A stretch of DNA of 64,000 bases from an uncultured candidatus Porisulfidus sp. (GCA_965214545.1 OZ243950.1:708813-772812), one strand, 5' to 3'. Positions 11,029-18,454 are shown, counted from the first letter of the stretch. Notes: generated by a model from the sequence alone, not told the origin. Program-made: numbers and translations.

Positions 11029-11750
11029 TGGCCACGCTCAACGCCCGGGATCTGTGCAAATCCTACCGCGAACGGCAGGTCGTCTCGAAGGTCTCGCTGC
11101 ACGCGAGCGACCACGAGGTGGTCGGGCTGCTGGGGCCGAACGGCGCGGGCAAAACGACCTGCTTCTACATGATCACGGGACTGGTGCCCTGCGACCGGGG
11201 CCAGATCCTGCTGGACGACCAGGACATCACCGGGCTGTCGATGAGCCGGCGGGCGCGCCAGGGCATCGGCTATCTCCCCCAGGAGCCCTCCGTGTTCCGC
11301 CGCCTGACGGTGGAGGAGAATGTCCTGGGGGTGCTGGAGCAATTGTCCCTACCGAAAGCGGAACGGAGAGAACGCCTGGAACTGCTGCTTGAGGAATTCT
11401 CCATTGCTGACATCCGCGGCAGCCGCGGATTTTCACTGTCGGGCGGCGAGCGCCGCCGGGTCGAGATTGCCCGTGCGCTGGCGATGGACCCCGCCTTCAT
11501 CCTGCTGGACGAGCCCTTCGCCGGCGTAGACCCCCTGCACGTGGCCGACATCAAGTCGATCATCCGGCAGTTGCAGGAGCGCGGCATCGGCATCATCATC
11601 ACCGACCACAACGTGCGCGAAACCCTCAGCATCTGCCGCCGCGCCTACATCCTCTCCGAAGGCCGCATCATCGCCGAGGGCGAACCCGGTGAGATCCTGG
11701 AAGACCCACAGGTGCGCGAGACTTACCTGGGGGCGGATTTCAAGCTCTGA
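11025..11750 (+). CDS. lptB: LPS export ABC transporter ATP-binding protein
   Basis: Walker [10 protein letters not shown], signature [15 protein letters not shown], conserved position. Confidence 0.9.
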
Positions 11751-11907
11751 GGGGGAATTTCCGTACGGGCCCGGCCCGGCGGTATCCGCAAAGATGTCGC
11801 ACCGCCGCAGGGCGGCGGTGCCGTGTCGGTTACTTGGCGGCCTGCATTTTGTCGATTTTGTTCGGCATGCCGTTCATTTGCTGAGATCTTGCTACGGATC
11901 TCCCCGA

Positions 11908-13473
11908 TCAGGCCGGCTCGGCGCGCACTCCCAACAGGTTGCGCTCCTCCCGTCCGAACGCGATCCCGACCAAGTGAATCGGCTCGCCACGGTCGCGGTA
12001 CTTCTCCGCATAGCCCCGCTCCCGGATCTGCGCCAGGGCCGCATCCAGTGCCGCCTCCCCGTCTTCGCCCTCCGCTGCCATCTTGAACTCCAGCACGAAC
12101 ACCTGCCCCCCGCGGAACACCACCATGTCCGCCCGGCCCCGGCTGGAAGCATCCTCCACCCGCAGGTCCACTCCGTTCGATCGGAAACACGCATACAGCA
12201 AGCCTCCGTACCAAGCCTCGTACCGCGCCAACTCCCCGCTCGTGTGCCACTGGTACGGCACCCCCGCATAAAAACTTCTCAGCTCGTCTCCAAATCCCTC
12301 GAAATCCCCCGACTCCAGGTGCCCGCACAACTGCCGGCCCCAGGCCACCACGTCCTCCCCCCGTTGCCCCAAGTGCTCCAATAGCCCGTCGTTCAGGCTC
12401 TTCCGCACTTCCTGATTCGGATAGTCCAGCGTGTAAAAGGTCGTGTCCTCGACGGTCTCCTCGGCGGTAATCGTCAGGTAGCCCGTCTGGAACAGCAAGG
12501 CATCCAGCCCAATGTCCTTCACATCGAACTTCGAGACCAGTTTCTCGCTCGCCACCCGCTGCTCCAACTGCATCGGGTTCATTTCCTTCTCCATCATCAA
12601 CCGGAACAGGAAGTTCGGCGAACCGGTCTCATACCAGTAGGGCTTGAATTTCCGGCTGTCGAAAAACAAAAGGATGTCAAACGGGTTGTAGACTTTCTCC
12701 TCACCCAGCCAGTGATAGCCGTTGTACCAGGCGCGGATCTGATCCCGGTCCAAGCCCTCCAGTTCCGGGGCGAACACCGCGTCCAGGTCGGCATCGGTGT
12801 ACCCGCAGACCGTGGCATACCTCGGGTTCAGGCTGATGTCCTTCAGGTTGTTGAGTCCTGAGAACAGGCTCACCTTCGAGAACATGCTCACCCCGGTCAC
12901 GAACACGAAACGCACATGTTCGGCGCTGTCCTTGATGACTCCGTAGAAGCCGCGCAGGTAATCCCGGTTCGCCTCCGACAACGCCGTGTCCTTCAGTACA
13001 TCCAGGATCGGCTTGTCGTACTCGTCCACTAGCACCGCCACCGACTGGCCGGTCTCATTGTGCAGACGACGCAACAGATCCCGCAACCGTTGCGGCCCAT
13101 CCTGTGCCGGGGTTGCCGGAGAAAGACCGGCGTCTTCCTCGATTCCCGCCAGTTGCGTGAGGATATCCCCCTCAAGATCTCCCGGCTCCGTATATTTCCC
13201 GCCAAACTTCAGATGCACCACCGGATGGCGCACCGACCAGTCCCAGCGGTCGTGGATGCCCAGCCCCTCAAACAGTTCCTCCTGACCCTCGAACAGGGCT
13301 TTGAGCGTGCTCACCAGCAGGCTCTTGCCGAACCGGCGCGGTCGGGACAGGAAATAGTGCTCGCCTCCCTCGACCAGATTCCGGATGAGAAGGGTCTTAT
13401 CCACGTAGTAATAGCCCCGCTCTCGGATCGCCCGGAAGTCCTGGATTCCAACGGGTAGCTTGCGGCGGGTCAT
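11908..13473 (-). CDS. AAA-ATPase-like domain protein with C-terminal PD-(D/E)XK nuclease domain (DUF1703 family)
   Basis: 521 aa. N-terminus (IQDFRAIRERGYYYVDKTLLI...RPRRFGKSL) is diagnostic of the predicted AAA-ATPase family. C-terminus has a restriction-endonuclease-like motif (RADMVV...VLEFKM). Confidence 0.8.
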   Translation of the reverse strand: MTRRKLPVGIQDFRAIRERGYYYVDKTLLIRNLVEGGEHYFLSRPRRFGKSLLVSTLKALFEGQEELFEGLGIHDRWDWSVRHPVVHLKFGGKYTEPGDLEGDILTQLAGIEEDAGLSPATPAQDGPQRLRDLLRRLHNETGQSVAVLVDEYDKPILDVLKDTALSEANRDYLRGFYGVIKDSAEHVRFVFVTGVSMFSKVSLFSGLNNLKDISLNPRYATVCGYTDADLDAVFAPELEGLDRDQIRAWYNGYHWLGEEKVYNPFDILLFFDSRKFKPYWYETGSPNFLFRLMMEKEMNPMQLEQRVASEKLVSKFDVKDIGLDALLFQTGYLTITAEETVEDTTFYTLDYPNQEVRKSLNDGLLEHLGQRGEDVVAWGRQLCGHLESGDFEGFGDELRSFYAGVPYQWHTSGELARYEAWYGGLLYACFRSNGVDLRVEDASSRGRADMVVFRGGQVFVLEFKMAAEGEDGEAALDAALAQIRERGYAEKYRDRGEPIHLVGIAFGREERNLLGVRAEPA

Positions 13474-13599
13474 GAGCAGCCTCTTGCGTACATTGTGGAA
13501 TCATAGCATGGGGACGCATCCGGCTTTCCTCACGAAAGTACAGGGGCTGGGCTACGGGTGCCAGTCGGAGAAGTGGTGCGACTAGGCATCAAGATTCGA

Positions 13600-13623
13600 G
13601 GATTCTAGCGCGTTTGTCAACCT
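13600..13623. repeat. copy 2 of the 24-bp motif (GGATTCTAGCGCGTTTGTCAACCT)
   Basis: 23/24 identical to 7424..7447. Lies in the promoter region of the AAA-ATPase gene, followed by an AT-rich stretch. Confidence 0.5.
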
Positions 13624-17051: not shown

Positions 17052-17165
17052 AATTCGGGCTGCAATGCGCGGGATTGTAACATATGATTTGTCGGGTTTT
17101 CAAGGACGAGTTGCCCTTGGAGATTTGTCCTCGCGAAACCCTCCCAGCCGCCCAAAGCGGGGCCG

Positions 17166-18023
17166 TCAGCAATTCTCGCTGCACACCCCGCCGGCAGCCC
17201 TCAGCACTTCGGGCCAACCGGGCTCGTCCCGCTCCAGGTGGAAATCCAGCGGGGTCTTGCCTTCTCGGTCTCTCGCATTCACGTCCGCACCGGCGGCCAA
17301 CAACATCTGCGCGACCGTCGCATACCCCCGGAAGCGCGCCGCCAGGTGCAGGGGCGTCAGGCCCCCGGTATCCCGCGCGTTCGCATCGGCCCCGGCATCC
17401 AGCAGCAATTCCGCCACCGACGGATTTCCGCCGAAGGCCGCCGCAAAATGCAGGGGAGTCGAATCGTTGCCCGCCCGCGCATCCACGAAGGCCCCGGCCC
17501 GCAGCAGCATGCCCGCAACCTCCGGATCCCAGTAATGCCCTGCCGCCAGGTGCAGGGGGGTCAGGCCGTCCTCGTTCTTCGCATGCGTGGCCGCCCCGGC
17601 ATCCAGAAGCAGCCGGATCACCTCCAGCTGCCGGGCCGTCTCGCCAGGCCCGGCAGTCGCATCCGCGCCCGGCCGTGTCAGTGAAGCCGCCGGGGCCGGG
17701 TTGACCACCGCAAAATGCAACGCCGTCATGCCGTGATGCCCCGCCAAGTCCACCCGGGCCCCGGCATCCAGCAAGGCCCGCACGATCTCGGGATTCGGAC
17801 GGGTCCGGGCCGCGTGCTGCAACGGGGTCTTGCCCCGCTCGAACGCATTGACCTCCGCGCCCGCATCCAGCAGCGCCCGCACTTCCGCGAGGGTCCCCGC
17901 CCGCACCGCCGCGTGCAGGGCGGATTCAGCCAGCGCCGCCGGGGCGCCCGTCAGCGCCAGGCCGGCCACGACCCCGGCGCACGCCCCTGCCGCCCTCGAA
18001 AACATACCGAATTCCCCGCACAT
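17166..18023 (-). CDS. ankyrin-repeat protein with N-terminal signal peptide
   Basis: At least 6 ANK repeats (TPLHxAA...G...vvxxLLxxGA patterns). N-terminus MFSRAAGACAGVVAGLALTGAPAALA. GGAG lies 8 nt upstream of the ATG at 18023. The longer ORF reaches 18047. Confidence 0.75.
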   Translation of the reverse strand: MCGEFGMFSRAAGACAGVVAGLALTGAPAALAESALHAAVRAGTLAEVRALLDAGAEVNAFERGKTPLQHAARTRPNPEIVRALLDAGARVDLAGHHGMTALHFAVVNPAPAASLTRPGADATAGPGETARQLEVIRLLLDAGAATHAKNEDGLTPLHLAAGHYWDPEVAGMLLRAGAFVDARAGNDSTPLHFAAAFGGNPSVAELLLDAGADANARDTGGLTPLHLAARFRGYATVAQMLLAAGADVNARDREGKTPLDFHLERDEPGWPEVLRAAGGVCSENC

Positions 18024-18133
18024 TGGCCCCGCTCCAGAATCGCCCATAGTCTACCCCAGCCGGATTCCGGTTCTGACCCTCTCCGAACCTCTCCCGCCTT
18101 GTATAATGGACAGACTACGGAGGAAGTCTTGCT

Positions 18134-18454
18134 ATGAATTTGAAGCTCACCGGACACCACCTTGAAATCACCGCTCCGCTTCGCGATTACATCCACGCCA
18201 AATTCAAGCGCCTGACCCGCCACTTCGACGACGTGATCGACACCCAGGTCACGCTGTCGGTCGAACACGACACGCACCGCGCGGAAGCCACCCTGCACGT
18301 CCGCGGCCACCGCATGCACGCGCGCGCCGAACACACCGACATGTACGCGGCGATCGACACGATGACCGGAAAGTTGGACCGACAGGTCCTCAAGTACAAG
18401 GAAAAACGCAAAGACCACCACCAAGACCAGATTACCCACCACCAGCTGAACTGA
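18134..18454 (+). CDS. hpf: ribosome hibernation promoting factor / sigma-54 modulation protein
   Basis: MNLKLTGHHLEITAPLRDYIHAKFKRL..., SD GGAGGAAG. Conserved position before ptsN. Confidence 0.9.
   Translation: MNLKLTGHHLEITAPLRDYIHAKFKRLTRHFDDVIDTQVTLSVEHDTHRAEATLHVRGHRMHARAEHTDMYAAIDTMTGKLDRQVLKYKEKRKDHHQDQITHHQLN

What the first reader, a model, noticed from the sequence alone, without database searches (positions are those of the whole stretch)
11750..18134. rpoN is absent from its conserved slot between lptB and hpf and is replaced by a 6.3 kb accessory block
yrbG-kdsD-kdsC-lptC-lptA-lptB-rpoN-hpf-ptsN-rapZ-npr is one of the most conserved gene orders in proteobacteria. Here lptB (ends 11750) and hpf (starts 18134) are both present, but the sigma-54 gene between them is missing. 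In its place are an AAA-ATPase/PD-(D/E)XK gene, secB, two oxygenases, the collagen adhesin and an ankyrin protein, all on the opposite strand. The PTS-Ntr module (ptsN, npr, ptsI) that normally cooperates with sigma-54 is retained.
Basis: partly seen in the sequence, partly recalled or inferred. Interest (0 to 1): 0.6.

Follow-up and report, generated by a model that had tools for sequence, protein, structure and literature searches.

The report
Old rpoN loss, later gene insertions
The sigma-54 gene is indeed missing between lptB and hpf, but it was lost long ago in the whole sponge-symbiont lineage (Candidatus Porisulfidus), and the accessory genes now in the gap arrived later, so the loss is an ordinary symbiont trait, not a replacement.

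Summary
lptB ends at 11750 and hpf starts at 18134. Six minus-strand accessory genes fill the 6.4 kb between them, and nothing in the 64 kb window resembles RpoN.

The interpretation "rpoN replaced by the block" is not supported. The window belongs to Candidatus Porisulfidus, sponge-associated Gammaproteobacteria with 1.6-2.0 Mb chromosomes. None of the 16 Porisulfidus lptB-hpf loci I examined has rpoN in the slot.
- In the four deepest branches lptB is followed by hpf after only 39-80 bp.
- The nearest outgroup keeps lptB-rpoN-hpf-ptsN-hprK-rapZ.
- So rpoN (and hprK) were deleted cleanly in the ancestor.

The emptied spacer lies upstream of a conserved TGTATAAT promoter for hpf. It later became a variable island holding AbiE toxin-antitoxin genes, EF-hand proteins and ankyrin proteins.

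In the window only the ankyrin gene is shared with relatives. The other 5.4 kb is specific to this genome. It includes a four-gene cassette, also found in unrelated sponge-metagenome bacteria:
- a collagen-like protein with a YadA-type anchor;
- two prolyl-hydroxylase-like oxygenases;
- a SecB-like chaperone.

I could not test whether sigma-54 is absent from the whole genome. Loss of sigma-54 in small-genome symbionts is a known pattern.

The parts
9961..11028 (+). Single ORF fusing LptC (residues 21-188) and LptA (residues 222-352)
   Evidence: Pfam LptC + LptD_N. NCBIfam LptC_YrbK and LptA both score above their cut-offs. The same fusion is present in every Porisulfidus locus (alignment A1). 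The genes are separate in outgroup L009 and in E. coli.
11025..11750 (+). lptB, the last gene of the lpt unit
   Evidence: ABC_tran. 60% identity to E. coli LptB over its full length.
11799..11821 (.). Perfect 10-bp GC-rich hairpin (GCACCGCCGC-AGG-GCGGCGGTGC) between the converging lptB and AAA-ATPase genes. There is no T tract.
   Evidence: Read directly from the sequence. The terminator scan found no canonical T-tailed site.
11908..13473 (-). AAA-ATPase_like + PD-(D/E)XK (PDDEXK_9) protein. Cargo specific to this genome, function unknown.
   Evidence: Pfam E=7e-61 and 5e-18. No NCBIfam or PADLOC family. No homologue in any relative's locus.
13692..14204 (-). SecB-like chaperone, last gene of the cassette
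   Evidence: Pfam SecB E=6e-30. It scores below all NCBIfam SecB equivalog cut-offs (110 vs 143; 88.7 vs 102.8). 65% identical to the SecB-like gene at the same position in L023. A SecB-like gene lies downstream of the oxygenase in 8 of 9 close metagenome loci.
14263..14850 (-). 2OG-Fe(II) oxygenase no. 1, prolyl-hydroxylase-like
   Evidence: Pfam 2OG-FeII_Oxy_3. H109-x-D111...H171 and R181 are invariant in 35 homologues. A profile search against PDB matches almost only prolyl hydroxylases. AlphaFold2 model pLDDT 92.8. Top fold matches are the P. putida prolyl 4-hydroxylase, PiuC, PHD2 and algal/viral P4H.
14981..15511 (-). 2OG-Fe(II) oxygenase no. 2, prolyl-hydroxylase-like
   Evidence: Pfam 2OG-FeII_Oxy_3 E=7e-12. 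H97-x-D99...H149 and R159 are conserved. Profile hits to prolyl 3-hydroxylase 1 (3e-7) and B. anthracis P4H (2.5e-3).
15810..17051 (-). Collagen-like surface protein: signal-like hydrophobic N-terminus, about 200 residues of GXY repeats rich in GPP, and a C-terminal YadA-type anchor
   Evidence: Pfam Collagen E=2e-16; YadA_anchor 22.8 bits against a cut-off of 22.7. Translation. N- and C-termini are conserved with L023, L024, L026, L027 and L029.
17000..17019 (-). 20-nt poly-C tract (coding strand) 32 nt into the collagen-like ORF. A candidate slipped-strand phase-variation switch.
   Evidence: Zero runs this long are expected in shuffles.
17074..17103 (-). Sigma-70-like promoter TTGAAA-18-TACAAT with a TG extension, upstream of the collagen-like gene
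   Evidence: consensus match only.
17166..18047 (-). Ankyrin-repeat protein, the older resident of the gap
   Evidence: Pfam Ank_2 E=3e-48. Orthologues at 62-71% identity sit next to hpf in L002, L003, L010-L015 and L021; in L019 the orthologue lies further inside the gap. It is absent from L004 and from the deep branches.
18100..18107 (+). Extended -10 element TGTATAAT, 26 bp upstream of the hpf start codon
   Evidence: Read from the sequence. The same element (TGTATAAT, TATATAAT or TGTTATAAT) is upstream of hpf in every Porisulfidus locus and absent from the rpoN-hpf spacer of outgroup L009.
18134..22190 (+). hpf, ptsN, rapZ, EIIA-Man, npr (HPr-type), ptsI. This is the retained downstream half of the old rpoN operon, without hprK.
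   Evidence: Pfam. tblastn with the E. coli proteins. hprK is present in the outgroup only.

Best explanation
The window comes from a member of Candidatus Porisulfidus, a sponge-associated gammaproteobacterial lineage with small genomes. In the ancestor of this lineage rpoN was deleted cleanly from the lptB-rpoN-hpf-ptsN-hprK-rapZ operon, and hprK was lost as well. This left lptB 39-80 bp from hpf, and hpf is served by its own extended -10 sigma-70 promoter. That short spacer lies between the end of the lpt unit and the hpf promoter. In the younger part of the lineage it became a permissive landing site whose content turns over: an AbiEi/AbiEii toxin-antitoxin pair, EF-hand proteins, and one or more ankyrin proteins. 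The window's genome kept only the ankyrin gene and gained a further 5.4 kb. This segment holds an AAA-ATPase/PD-(D/E)XK gene plus a horizontally shared four-gene cassette: a collagen-like YadA-anchored protein, two prolyl-hydroxylase-like oxygenases and a SecB-like chaperone. Shown here: the gene content, the rpoN-less slot throughout the clade, the basal position of the empty-gap genomes, the variable cargo, and the presence of the cassette in unrelated genomes. Inferred: that sigma-54 is absent from the whole genome (typical reductive loss in a symbiont), and the way the cargo was inserted (no integrase or flanking repeats were seen).
For: The gene order and the absence of any RpoN similarity in 64 kb are shown. 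The closest RapZ homologues are metagenome-only. The genome scan names the clade Ca. Porisulfidus or sponge MAGs, with 1.57-2.02 Mb chromosomes. None of the 16 Porisulfidus lptB-hpf loci examined has rpoN. The lptB-hpf gap is 39-80 bp in L005/L018, L006, L007 and L020. These genomes form the basal grade of an NJ tree rooted on the outgroup. Outgroup L009 has separate lptC and lptA, then lptB-rpoN-hpf-ptsN-hprK-rapZ. A conserved TGTATAAT lies upstream of hpf. Cargo shared among relatives (AbiE, EF-hand, Ank) has no match in the window apart from Ank, and none of the window's other block genes has a match in any relative's locus. The cassette recurs in L023 (52% GC), L024 (75% GC) and JGI metagenome contigs at 65-78% amino-acid identity. 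No homologue of 2OG no. 1 lies on any contig whose length matches a known Porisulfidus contig. The window and the fetched loci contain no bEBP and show no excess of sigma-54 promoter motifs: 21 observed against 28.8 expected. Francke et al. 2011 (PMC3162934) report that LPS-bearing diderm bacteria lacking sigma-54 are more than 90% endosymbionts, which mostly have small genomes.
Against: Genome-wide absence of rpoN was not tested. Only about 64 kb of this genome and the syntenic regions of relatives were readable, so a relocated copy cannot be excluded. The order of cargo gains and losses rests on parsimony over an NJ tree of four proteins. No integrase, tRNA or flanking direct or inverted repeats mark the block, so the insertion mechanism is unknown. 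The block's GC content (0.636) is only slightly below the window mean (0.654).
Confidence: 0.8

Rival explanations
1. rpoN was relocated. The lineage still has sigma-54, encoded somewhere outside the window, and only the classical operon was broken.
For: Nothing positive. It simply cannot be excluded, because only 64 kb of a roughly 1.85 Mb genome was readable (one search gives the contig length). Some proteobacteria carry rpoN copies away from this locus (Francke 2011: Burkholderiales, Rhizobiales and Xanthomonadales with two variants).
Against: The deletion is clean in all 16 Porisulfidus lptB-hpf loci examined. hprK was lost from the same operon. The genomes are reduced to 1.6-2.0 Mb, which fits the known class of symbionts without sigma-54. 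No bEBP and no sigma-54 promoter excess were found in the sequence available.
Confidence: 0.12
2. Insertion of the 6.3 kb accessory block displaced or destroyed rpoN in this genome.
For: The block sits exactly where rpoN would be.
Against: Basal relatives have no rpoN and no block, only 39-80 bp between lptB and hpf. No rpoN fragment flanks the block. The block is composite, with an old ankyrin gene and newer cargo.
Confidence: 0.03
3. It is an assembly or binning artefact that joins lptB and hpf contigs wrongly.
For: The window's relatives are all metagenome-derived.
Against: The same junction occurs in 16 independent assemblies from different samples. Several are contigs whose names mark them as circular, and others are long-read or chromosome-level records.
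Confidence: 0.01

Closest known systems
Canonical proteobacterial lpt-rpoN-PTS(Ntr) cluster (E. coli yrbG-kdsD-kdsC-lptC-lptA-lptB-rpoN-hpf-ptsN-rapZ-npr)
   Same: All flanking genes are present in the same order and orientation. The nearest outgroup L009 has the full canonical order.
   Different: rpoN is absent. hprK, present in the outgroup, is absent. lptC and lptA are fused into one ORF. hpf has its own extended -10 promoter. EIIA-Man and a PtsI-type enzyme I without a GAF domain follow rapZ and npr.
Sigma-54-less host-associated bacteria with small genomes (Buchnera, Francisella, Rickettsia, Bartonella; Neisseria with an inactive rpoN), as summarised by Francke et al. 2011, PMC3162934
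   Same: A host-associated lineage (sponge MAG names and record titles), reduced chromosomes of 1.6-2.0 Mb, an LPS-bearing diderm, and rpoN missing from its locus.
   Different: Genome-wide absence is not demonstrated here. The genomes are somewhat larger than the under-1.5 Mb class named in that paper. The downstream hpf-ptsN-rapZ-npr-ptsI genes are all kept.
Eukaryote-like protein islands of sponge symbionts (ankyrin and similar repeat proteins; from general knowledge, not tested here)
   Same: The gap collects ankyrin, EF-hand and collagen-like proteins, which are typically eukaryotic domains.
   Different: Here they accumulate at one defined chromosomal site, the vacated rpoN slot, alongside toxin-antitoxin genes.
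Bacterial and viral collagen prolyl 4-hydroxylases (B. anthracis P4H 3ITQ/5HV0; PBCV-1 vCPH 5C5T) and protein prolyl hydroxylases (P. putida PPHD 4J25, PHD2)
   Same: 2OG-FeII_Oxy_3 domain, an HxD...H triad plus Arg, profile and fold matches, and genomic linkage to a GPP-rich collagen-like protein.
   Different: Sequence identity is only about 18-21%. There are two distinct paralogues in tandem, linked to a SecB-like gene. The substrate is unknown.
YadA-type trimeric autotransporter adhesins
   Same: A C-terminal YadA_anchor match and a signal-like N-terminus, with a repetitive stalk between them.
   Different: The stalk is a collagen triple-helix repeat rather than YadA head and stalk motifs. 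The anchor score is only just at the Pfam cut-off (22.8 vs 22.7).

Membership tests
Canonical lptB-rpoN-hpf-ptsN-rapZ-npr operon | yrbG-kdsD-kdsC-lptC-lptA-lptB upstream block | tested here: met
   (with lptC and lptA fused).
Canonical lptB-rpoN-hpf-ptsN-rapZ-npr operon | rpoN between lptB and hpf | tested here: not met
   No RpoN similarity in the window or in any Porisulfidus locus.
Canonical lptB-rpoN-hpf-ptsN-rapZ-npr operon | hpf-ptsN-rapZ-npr downstream block | tested here: met
Sigma-54-less reduced-genome symbionts (Francke 2011 pattern) | Small genome and host association | tested here: met
   Relatives have complete chromosomes of 1.57-2.02 Mb, and the records are named as sponge MAGs or Ca. 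Porisulfidus. The source contig is probably 1,853,631 bp.
Sigma-54-less reduced-genome symbionts (Francke 2011 pattern) | No rpoN anywhere in the genome | not testable with these tools
   Only the window and regions of up to 10 kb either side of matched genes in relatives could be read.
Sigma-54-less reduced-genome symbionts (Francke 2011 pattern) | No sigma-54-dependent activators (GAFTGA AAA+ bEBPs) | tested here: inconclusive
   None was found in the window or in the fetched loci. That is only a few percent of a genome.
Genomic island / integration hot spot | Variable gene content between conserved flanking genes in related genomes | tested here: met
   The gap ranges from 39 bp to 6.4 kb, with AbiE, EF-hand, Ank or cassette cargo.
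Genomic island / integration hot spot | Integrase, tRNA target or flanking repeats | tested here: not met
   No integrase domain. No tRNA nearby; the only tRNAs are at 62 kb. No convincing flanking direct or inverted repeats.
Protein prolyl hydroxylases (2OG oxygenases) | 2OG-FeII_Oxy_3 domain with an HxD...H iron triad and a 2OG-binding Arg | tested here: met
Protein prolyl hydroxylases (2OG oxygenases) | Fold closest to solved prolyl hydroxylases | tested here: met
   Tested for oxygenase no. 1 only: Foldseek top hits 4j25/4iw3, PHD2, 2jig and 5c5t, TM 0.6-0.74. Oxygenase no. 2 was tested by sequence profile only.
Protein prolyl hydroxylases (2OG oxygenases) | Hydroxylation of proline in a defined substrate | not testable with these tools
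   This needs biochemistry. Only the gene linkage to the collagen-like protein is shown.
SecB export chaperone (housekeeping) | Score above the NCBIfam SecB equivalog cut-off | tested here: not met
   110.5 vs 143 and 88.7 vs 102.8. The Pfam SecB domain is present. It is therefore filed as SecB-like.
YadA-type trimeric autotransporter | C-terminal YadA anchor domain | tested here: met
   22.8 bits against a cut-off of 22.7, which is marginal. The C-terminus is conserved in five other loci, ending in TWSW.
YadA-type trimeric autotransporter | N-terminal signal peptide | tested here: inconclusive
   A conserved hydrophobic stretch followed by AQAQ was seen by eye. No signal-peptide predictor was available.

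The most novel reading that the evidence does not exclude
The window-specific cargo contains a mobile four-gene cassette that makes a hydroxyproline-bearing, animal-like collagen on the bacterial surface. The two prolyl-hydroxylase-like oxygenases would modify the GPP-rich collagen-like protein in the cytoplasm. The SecB-like chaperone would keep that protein export-competent. The YadA-type anchor would display it as a trimer, and a 20-nt poly-C tract would switch it on and off. This would be a host-matrix mimicry device shared horizontally among unrelated sponge symbionts. Here it has landed in the slot vacated by rpoN.
Probability: 0.3. Interest if true: 0.65.

Novelty: new member of a known kind. 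Interest (0 to 1): 0.3.

Why it matters
The finding adds a sponge-symbiont lineage to the known set of host-associated, small-genome bacteria whose rpoN is missing. It also shows what happens to a highly conserved operon afterwards. The downstream half (hpf, ptsN, rapZ, npr, ptsI) survives under its own promoter. The vacated spacer becomes a site where host-interaction and defence genes accumulate and turn over. On its own this is of modest interest. The collagen / prolyl-hydroxylase / SecB-like cassette and the LptC-LptA fusion seen along the way are the less expected items and could be tested directly.

Tried and rejected
- Exact look-ups of the window's LptB, Hpf and the 100%-identical oxygenase P0126 all returned nothing. 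The source genome itself could therefore not be read beyond the window.
- I considered testing for rpoN elsewhere in the genome with a protein search using the outgroup's RpoN, recognising Porisulfidus contigs by their lengths. I rejected it. Only the best 120 hits are listed, and a long-branch Porisulfidus RpoN would rank far below thousands of other gammaproteobacterial RpoNs, so a negative result would mean nothing.
- I tried a trial scan of viral contigs with RpoN to learn how the locus finder picks its peptide patterns. It takes evenly spaced 8-mers.
- I looked for flanking repeats or att sites around the block and found none that were convincing.
- PADLOC gave no defence-system assignment for the AAA-ATPase/PD-(D/E)XK gene.
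- The ORF 15003-15587 first taken as a gene is a wrong frame. The real gene is 14981-15511.
- Literature searches found no paper on a natural LptC-LptA fusion, none on a collagen plus prolyl-hydroxylase module in sponge symbionts, and nothing on gene content among the three papers that mention Porisulfidus.

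
Full report
**Observation**

- On the + strand lie a yrbG-like exchanger, kdsD, kdsC, one ORF carrying both LptC and LptA domains (9961-11028) and lptB (11025-11750).
- A 6,383-bp stretch follows, holding six minus-strand genes.
- The + strand then resumes with hpf (18134-18454), ptsN, rapZ, an EIIA-Man gene, npr, ptsI and mgtE.
- The six genes in the gap are:
  - an AAA-ATPase_like/PDDEXK_9 protein;
  - a SecB-like protein;
  - two 2OG-FeII_Oxy_3 oxygenases; the second is ORF 14981-15511, and the longer overlapping ORF 15003-15587 is a wrong frame;
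  - a collagen-repeat protein with a YadA anchor;
  - an ankyrin protein.
- Neither E. coli RpoN (best E=3.6) nor the closest outgroup's RpoN (best E=1.1) matches anything in the 64 kb. There is no remnant and no second copy in the window.

**Who this is**

- Exact look-ups of window proteins failed.
- A RapZ search gave a tight group of metagenome-only relatives at 92-58% identity. There is then a gap down to 56% or less, where the named hits are Ectothiorhodospiraceae, Woeseiaceae and Spiribacter.
- I scanned the species-representative genomes with the clade-specific LptC-LptA fusion. It returned 12 loci, all titled Candidatus Porisulfidus, uncultured Chromatiales or sponge MAGs. Six of them are complete chromosomes of 1.57-2.02 Mb.
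- One window protein is 100% identical to a database protein on a 1,853,631-bp contig, probably the source genome. That contig could not be retrieved.

**The slot in relatives**

- None of the 16 Porisulfidus lptB-hpf loci I examined has rpoN.
- In L005/L018, L006, L020 and L007, lptB is followed by hpf after 39-80 bp.
- L004/L017 has only an AbiEii/AbiEi pair in the gap.
- The remaining genomes carry 1.0-5.5 kb of mixed cargo.
- An NJ tree of LptB+Hpf+PtsN+RapZ, rooted on the outgroup, places the empty-gap genomes as the basal grade, then L004, then a crown group that includes the window.
- The nearest outgroup (L009, RapZ 53% identical) has the textbook order: separate lptC and lptA, then lptB, a 480-aa rpoN with all three sigma-54 domains, hpf, ptsN, hprK, rapZ, EIIA-Man and npr.
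- The simplest history is therefore one clean deletion of rpoN in the Porisulfidus ancestor, along with loss of hprK and fusion of lptC-lptA. Insertions into the emptied spacer came later.

**How the locus works now**

- Every Porisulfidus genome has an extended -10 element about 20-40 bp upstream of hpf (TGTATAAT; variants TATATAAT and TGTTATAAT). The outgroup's rpoN-hpf spacer has none. So hpf-ptsN-rapZ-EIIA-Man-npr-ptsI most likely runs from its own sigma-70 promoter. This is inferred from a consensus match only.
- All insertions sit between the lptB stop codon and this promoter, where they interrupt nothing.
- A perfect 10-bp GC hairpin (11799-11821) lies between the converging lptB and AAA-ATPase genes. 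It has no T tract.

**What the cargo is**

- Among relatives the gap holds orthologous AbiEi/AbiEii pairs (L004, L013, L014, L015 degraded, L016, L019). It also holds EF-hand proteins (L002, L011, L014, L015, L019, L021) and ankyrin proteins.
- The window shares only the hpf-proximal ankyrin gene (62-71% identity).
- AbiE and EF-hand genes have no trace in the window.
- The window's other five genes have no match in any relative's locus.
- No integrase, tRNA or flanking repeat marks the block, so the insertion mechanism is unknown.

**The cassette**

The closest homologues of oxygenase no. 1 (58-78% identity) lie on large contigs of other sizes. None of those sizes matches a Porisulfidus contig.

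*Complete copies in other genomes*
- In L023 (2.51 Mb, name marked circular, 52% GC) and L024 (4.65 Mb, name marked circular, 75% GC), the order is the same as in the window: collagen-like gene, oxygenase 2, oxygenase 1, SecB-like.
- L023 shares 76%, 78% and 65% amino-acid identity with the window for the two oxygenases and the SecB-like protein.
- The public gene calls there are in the wrong frame. The correct frame has 121 GXY triplets in L023 and 744 in L024. The C-terminus is homologous to the window's anchor and ends in TWSW.

*Metagenome loci*
- A JGI metagenome scan found nine more loci at 71% identity or above.
- Oxygenase 2 lies upstream wherever there is room.
- A SecB-like gene lies downstream in eight of the nine.
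- A collagen-like gene with the same anchor lies upstream in the three contigs long enough to show it.

*The oxygenases and the SecB-like protein*
- Both oxygenases keep the HxD...H triad and the 2OG-binding arginine.
- A profile of oxygenase 1 matches almost only prolyl hydroxylases in the PDB.
- Its AlphaFold2 model (pLDDT 92.8) is closest to P. putida prolyl 4-hydroxylase, PiuC, PHD2 and the algal and viral collagen P4Hs.
- Oxygenase 2 matches prolyl 3-hydroxylase 1 and B. anthracis P4H.
- The SecB-like protein falls below every NCBIfam SecB cut-off.

*The collagen-like protein*
- It has a conserved hydrophobic, signal-like N-terminus.
- It carries a 20-nt poly-C tract near its 5' end.

That these four genes act together on the collagen-like protein is an inference from conserved linkage. 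It has not been demonstrated.

**Is sigma-54 gone from the genome?**

This could not be tested. Indirect points are:
- the clean, clade-wide deletion;
- the co-loss of hprK;
- the reduced genomes;
- no bEBP domain or GAFTGA motif in the window or in the fetched loci;
- no excess of TGGCAC-N5-TTGCW motifs, 21 against 28.8 expected;
- the only two-component pair in the window being NarL/LuxR-type.

Francke et al. 2011 report that LPS-bearing diderms without sigma-54 are more than 90% endosymbionts, mostly with small genomes (PMC3162934). I put genome-wide loss at about 0.8-0.85 and relocation at about 0.12.

**Verdict**

- The "replacement" reading is wrong. The loss is ancestral and fits a known pattern, and the block is later, layered cargo.
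- Interest for the rpoN claim itself is low to moderate.
- The collagen / prolyl-hydroxylase / SecB-like cassette and the natural LptC-LptA fusion are the more unusual things in this stretch.

Noticed in passing
window 13692-17051 (minus strand); also L023:7272-11103, L024:1-9235, L026, L027, L029: A conserved four-gene cassette: a collagen-like YadA-anchored protein, two distinct prolyl-hydroxylase-like 2OG oxygenases and a SecB-like chaperone. It is shared at 65-78% amino-acid identity with unrelated sponge-metagenome genomes of 52-75% GC. It may be a hydroxylated-collagen mimicry module.
   Followed up: partly
window 9961-11028; all Porisulfidus loci (alignment A1): lptC and lptA are fused into one ORF of 343-364 aa throughout the clade, but are separate genes in the outgroup and in E. 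coli. The linker looks like a degenerated LptA signal peptide (...AAHA). No paper on a natural fusion was found.
   Followed up: partly
window 17000-17019 and 53953-53966: The only two homopolymeric G/C tracts of 14 nt or more in the window. The 20-nt one lies inside the 5' end of the collagen-like gene, like a phase-variation switch. What surrounds the second was not examined.
   Followed up: no
between ptsN and rapZ: window 18914-18918; L009:9057-10010: hprK sits between ptsN and rapZ in the outgroup. It is absent from the window and from all Porisulfidus loci, although HPr/NPr, EIIA-Man and enzyme I are kept.
   Followed up: partly
L023:7534-8766 and L024:1-6993: The public gene calls over the collagen-like genes are in the wrong reading frame (products such as ...RALPEIRALPEI... 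and a '3158-aa' Arg-rich protein). These genes are therefore invisible to domain annotation.
   Followed up: yes
window 36000-39000, 2000-4000, 52000-53000, 56000-57000: Further low-GC patches (0.52-0.59 against about 0.67). They include a Dam-type D12 methyltransferase (36791-37621), a steroid 5-alpha-reductase-like protein (2714-3475) and an SBP56 selenium-binding-type protein (56764-58185).
   Followed up: no
window 6858-7244 (minus strand): A small ORF with weak antitoxin-like matches (PHD_like, HicB_lk_antitox), lying between the MMPL transporter gene and the yrbG-like gene. The matches are below the Pfam cut-offs.
   Followed up: no
L006:4223-5704 and L006:13464-20192: In one deep-branching relative the conserved cluster is interrupted elsewhere. 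An N6/N4 methyltransferase-Mrr gene sits between yrbG and kdsD, and two giant fn3+Peptidase_S8 genes sit between ptsI and mgtE.
   Followed up: no
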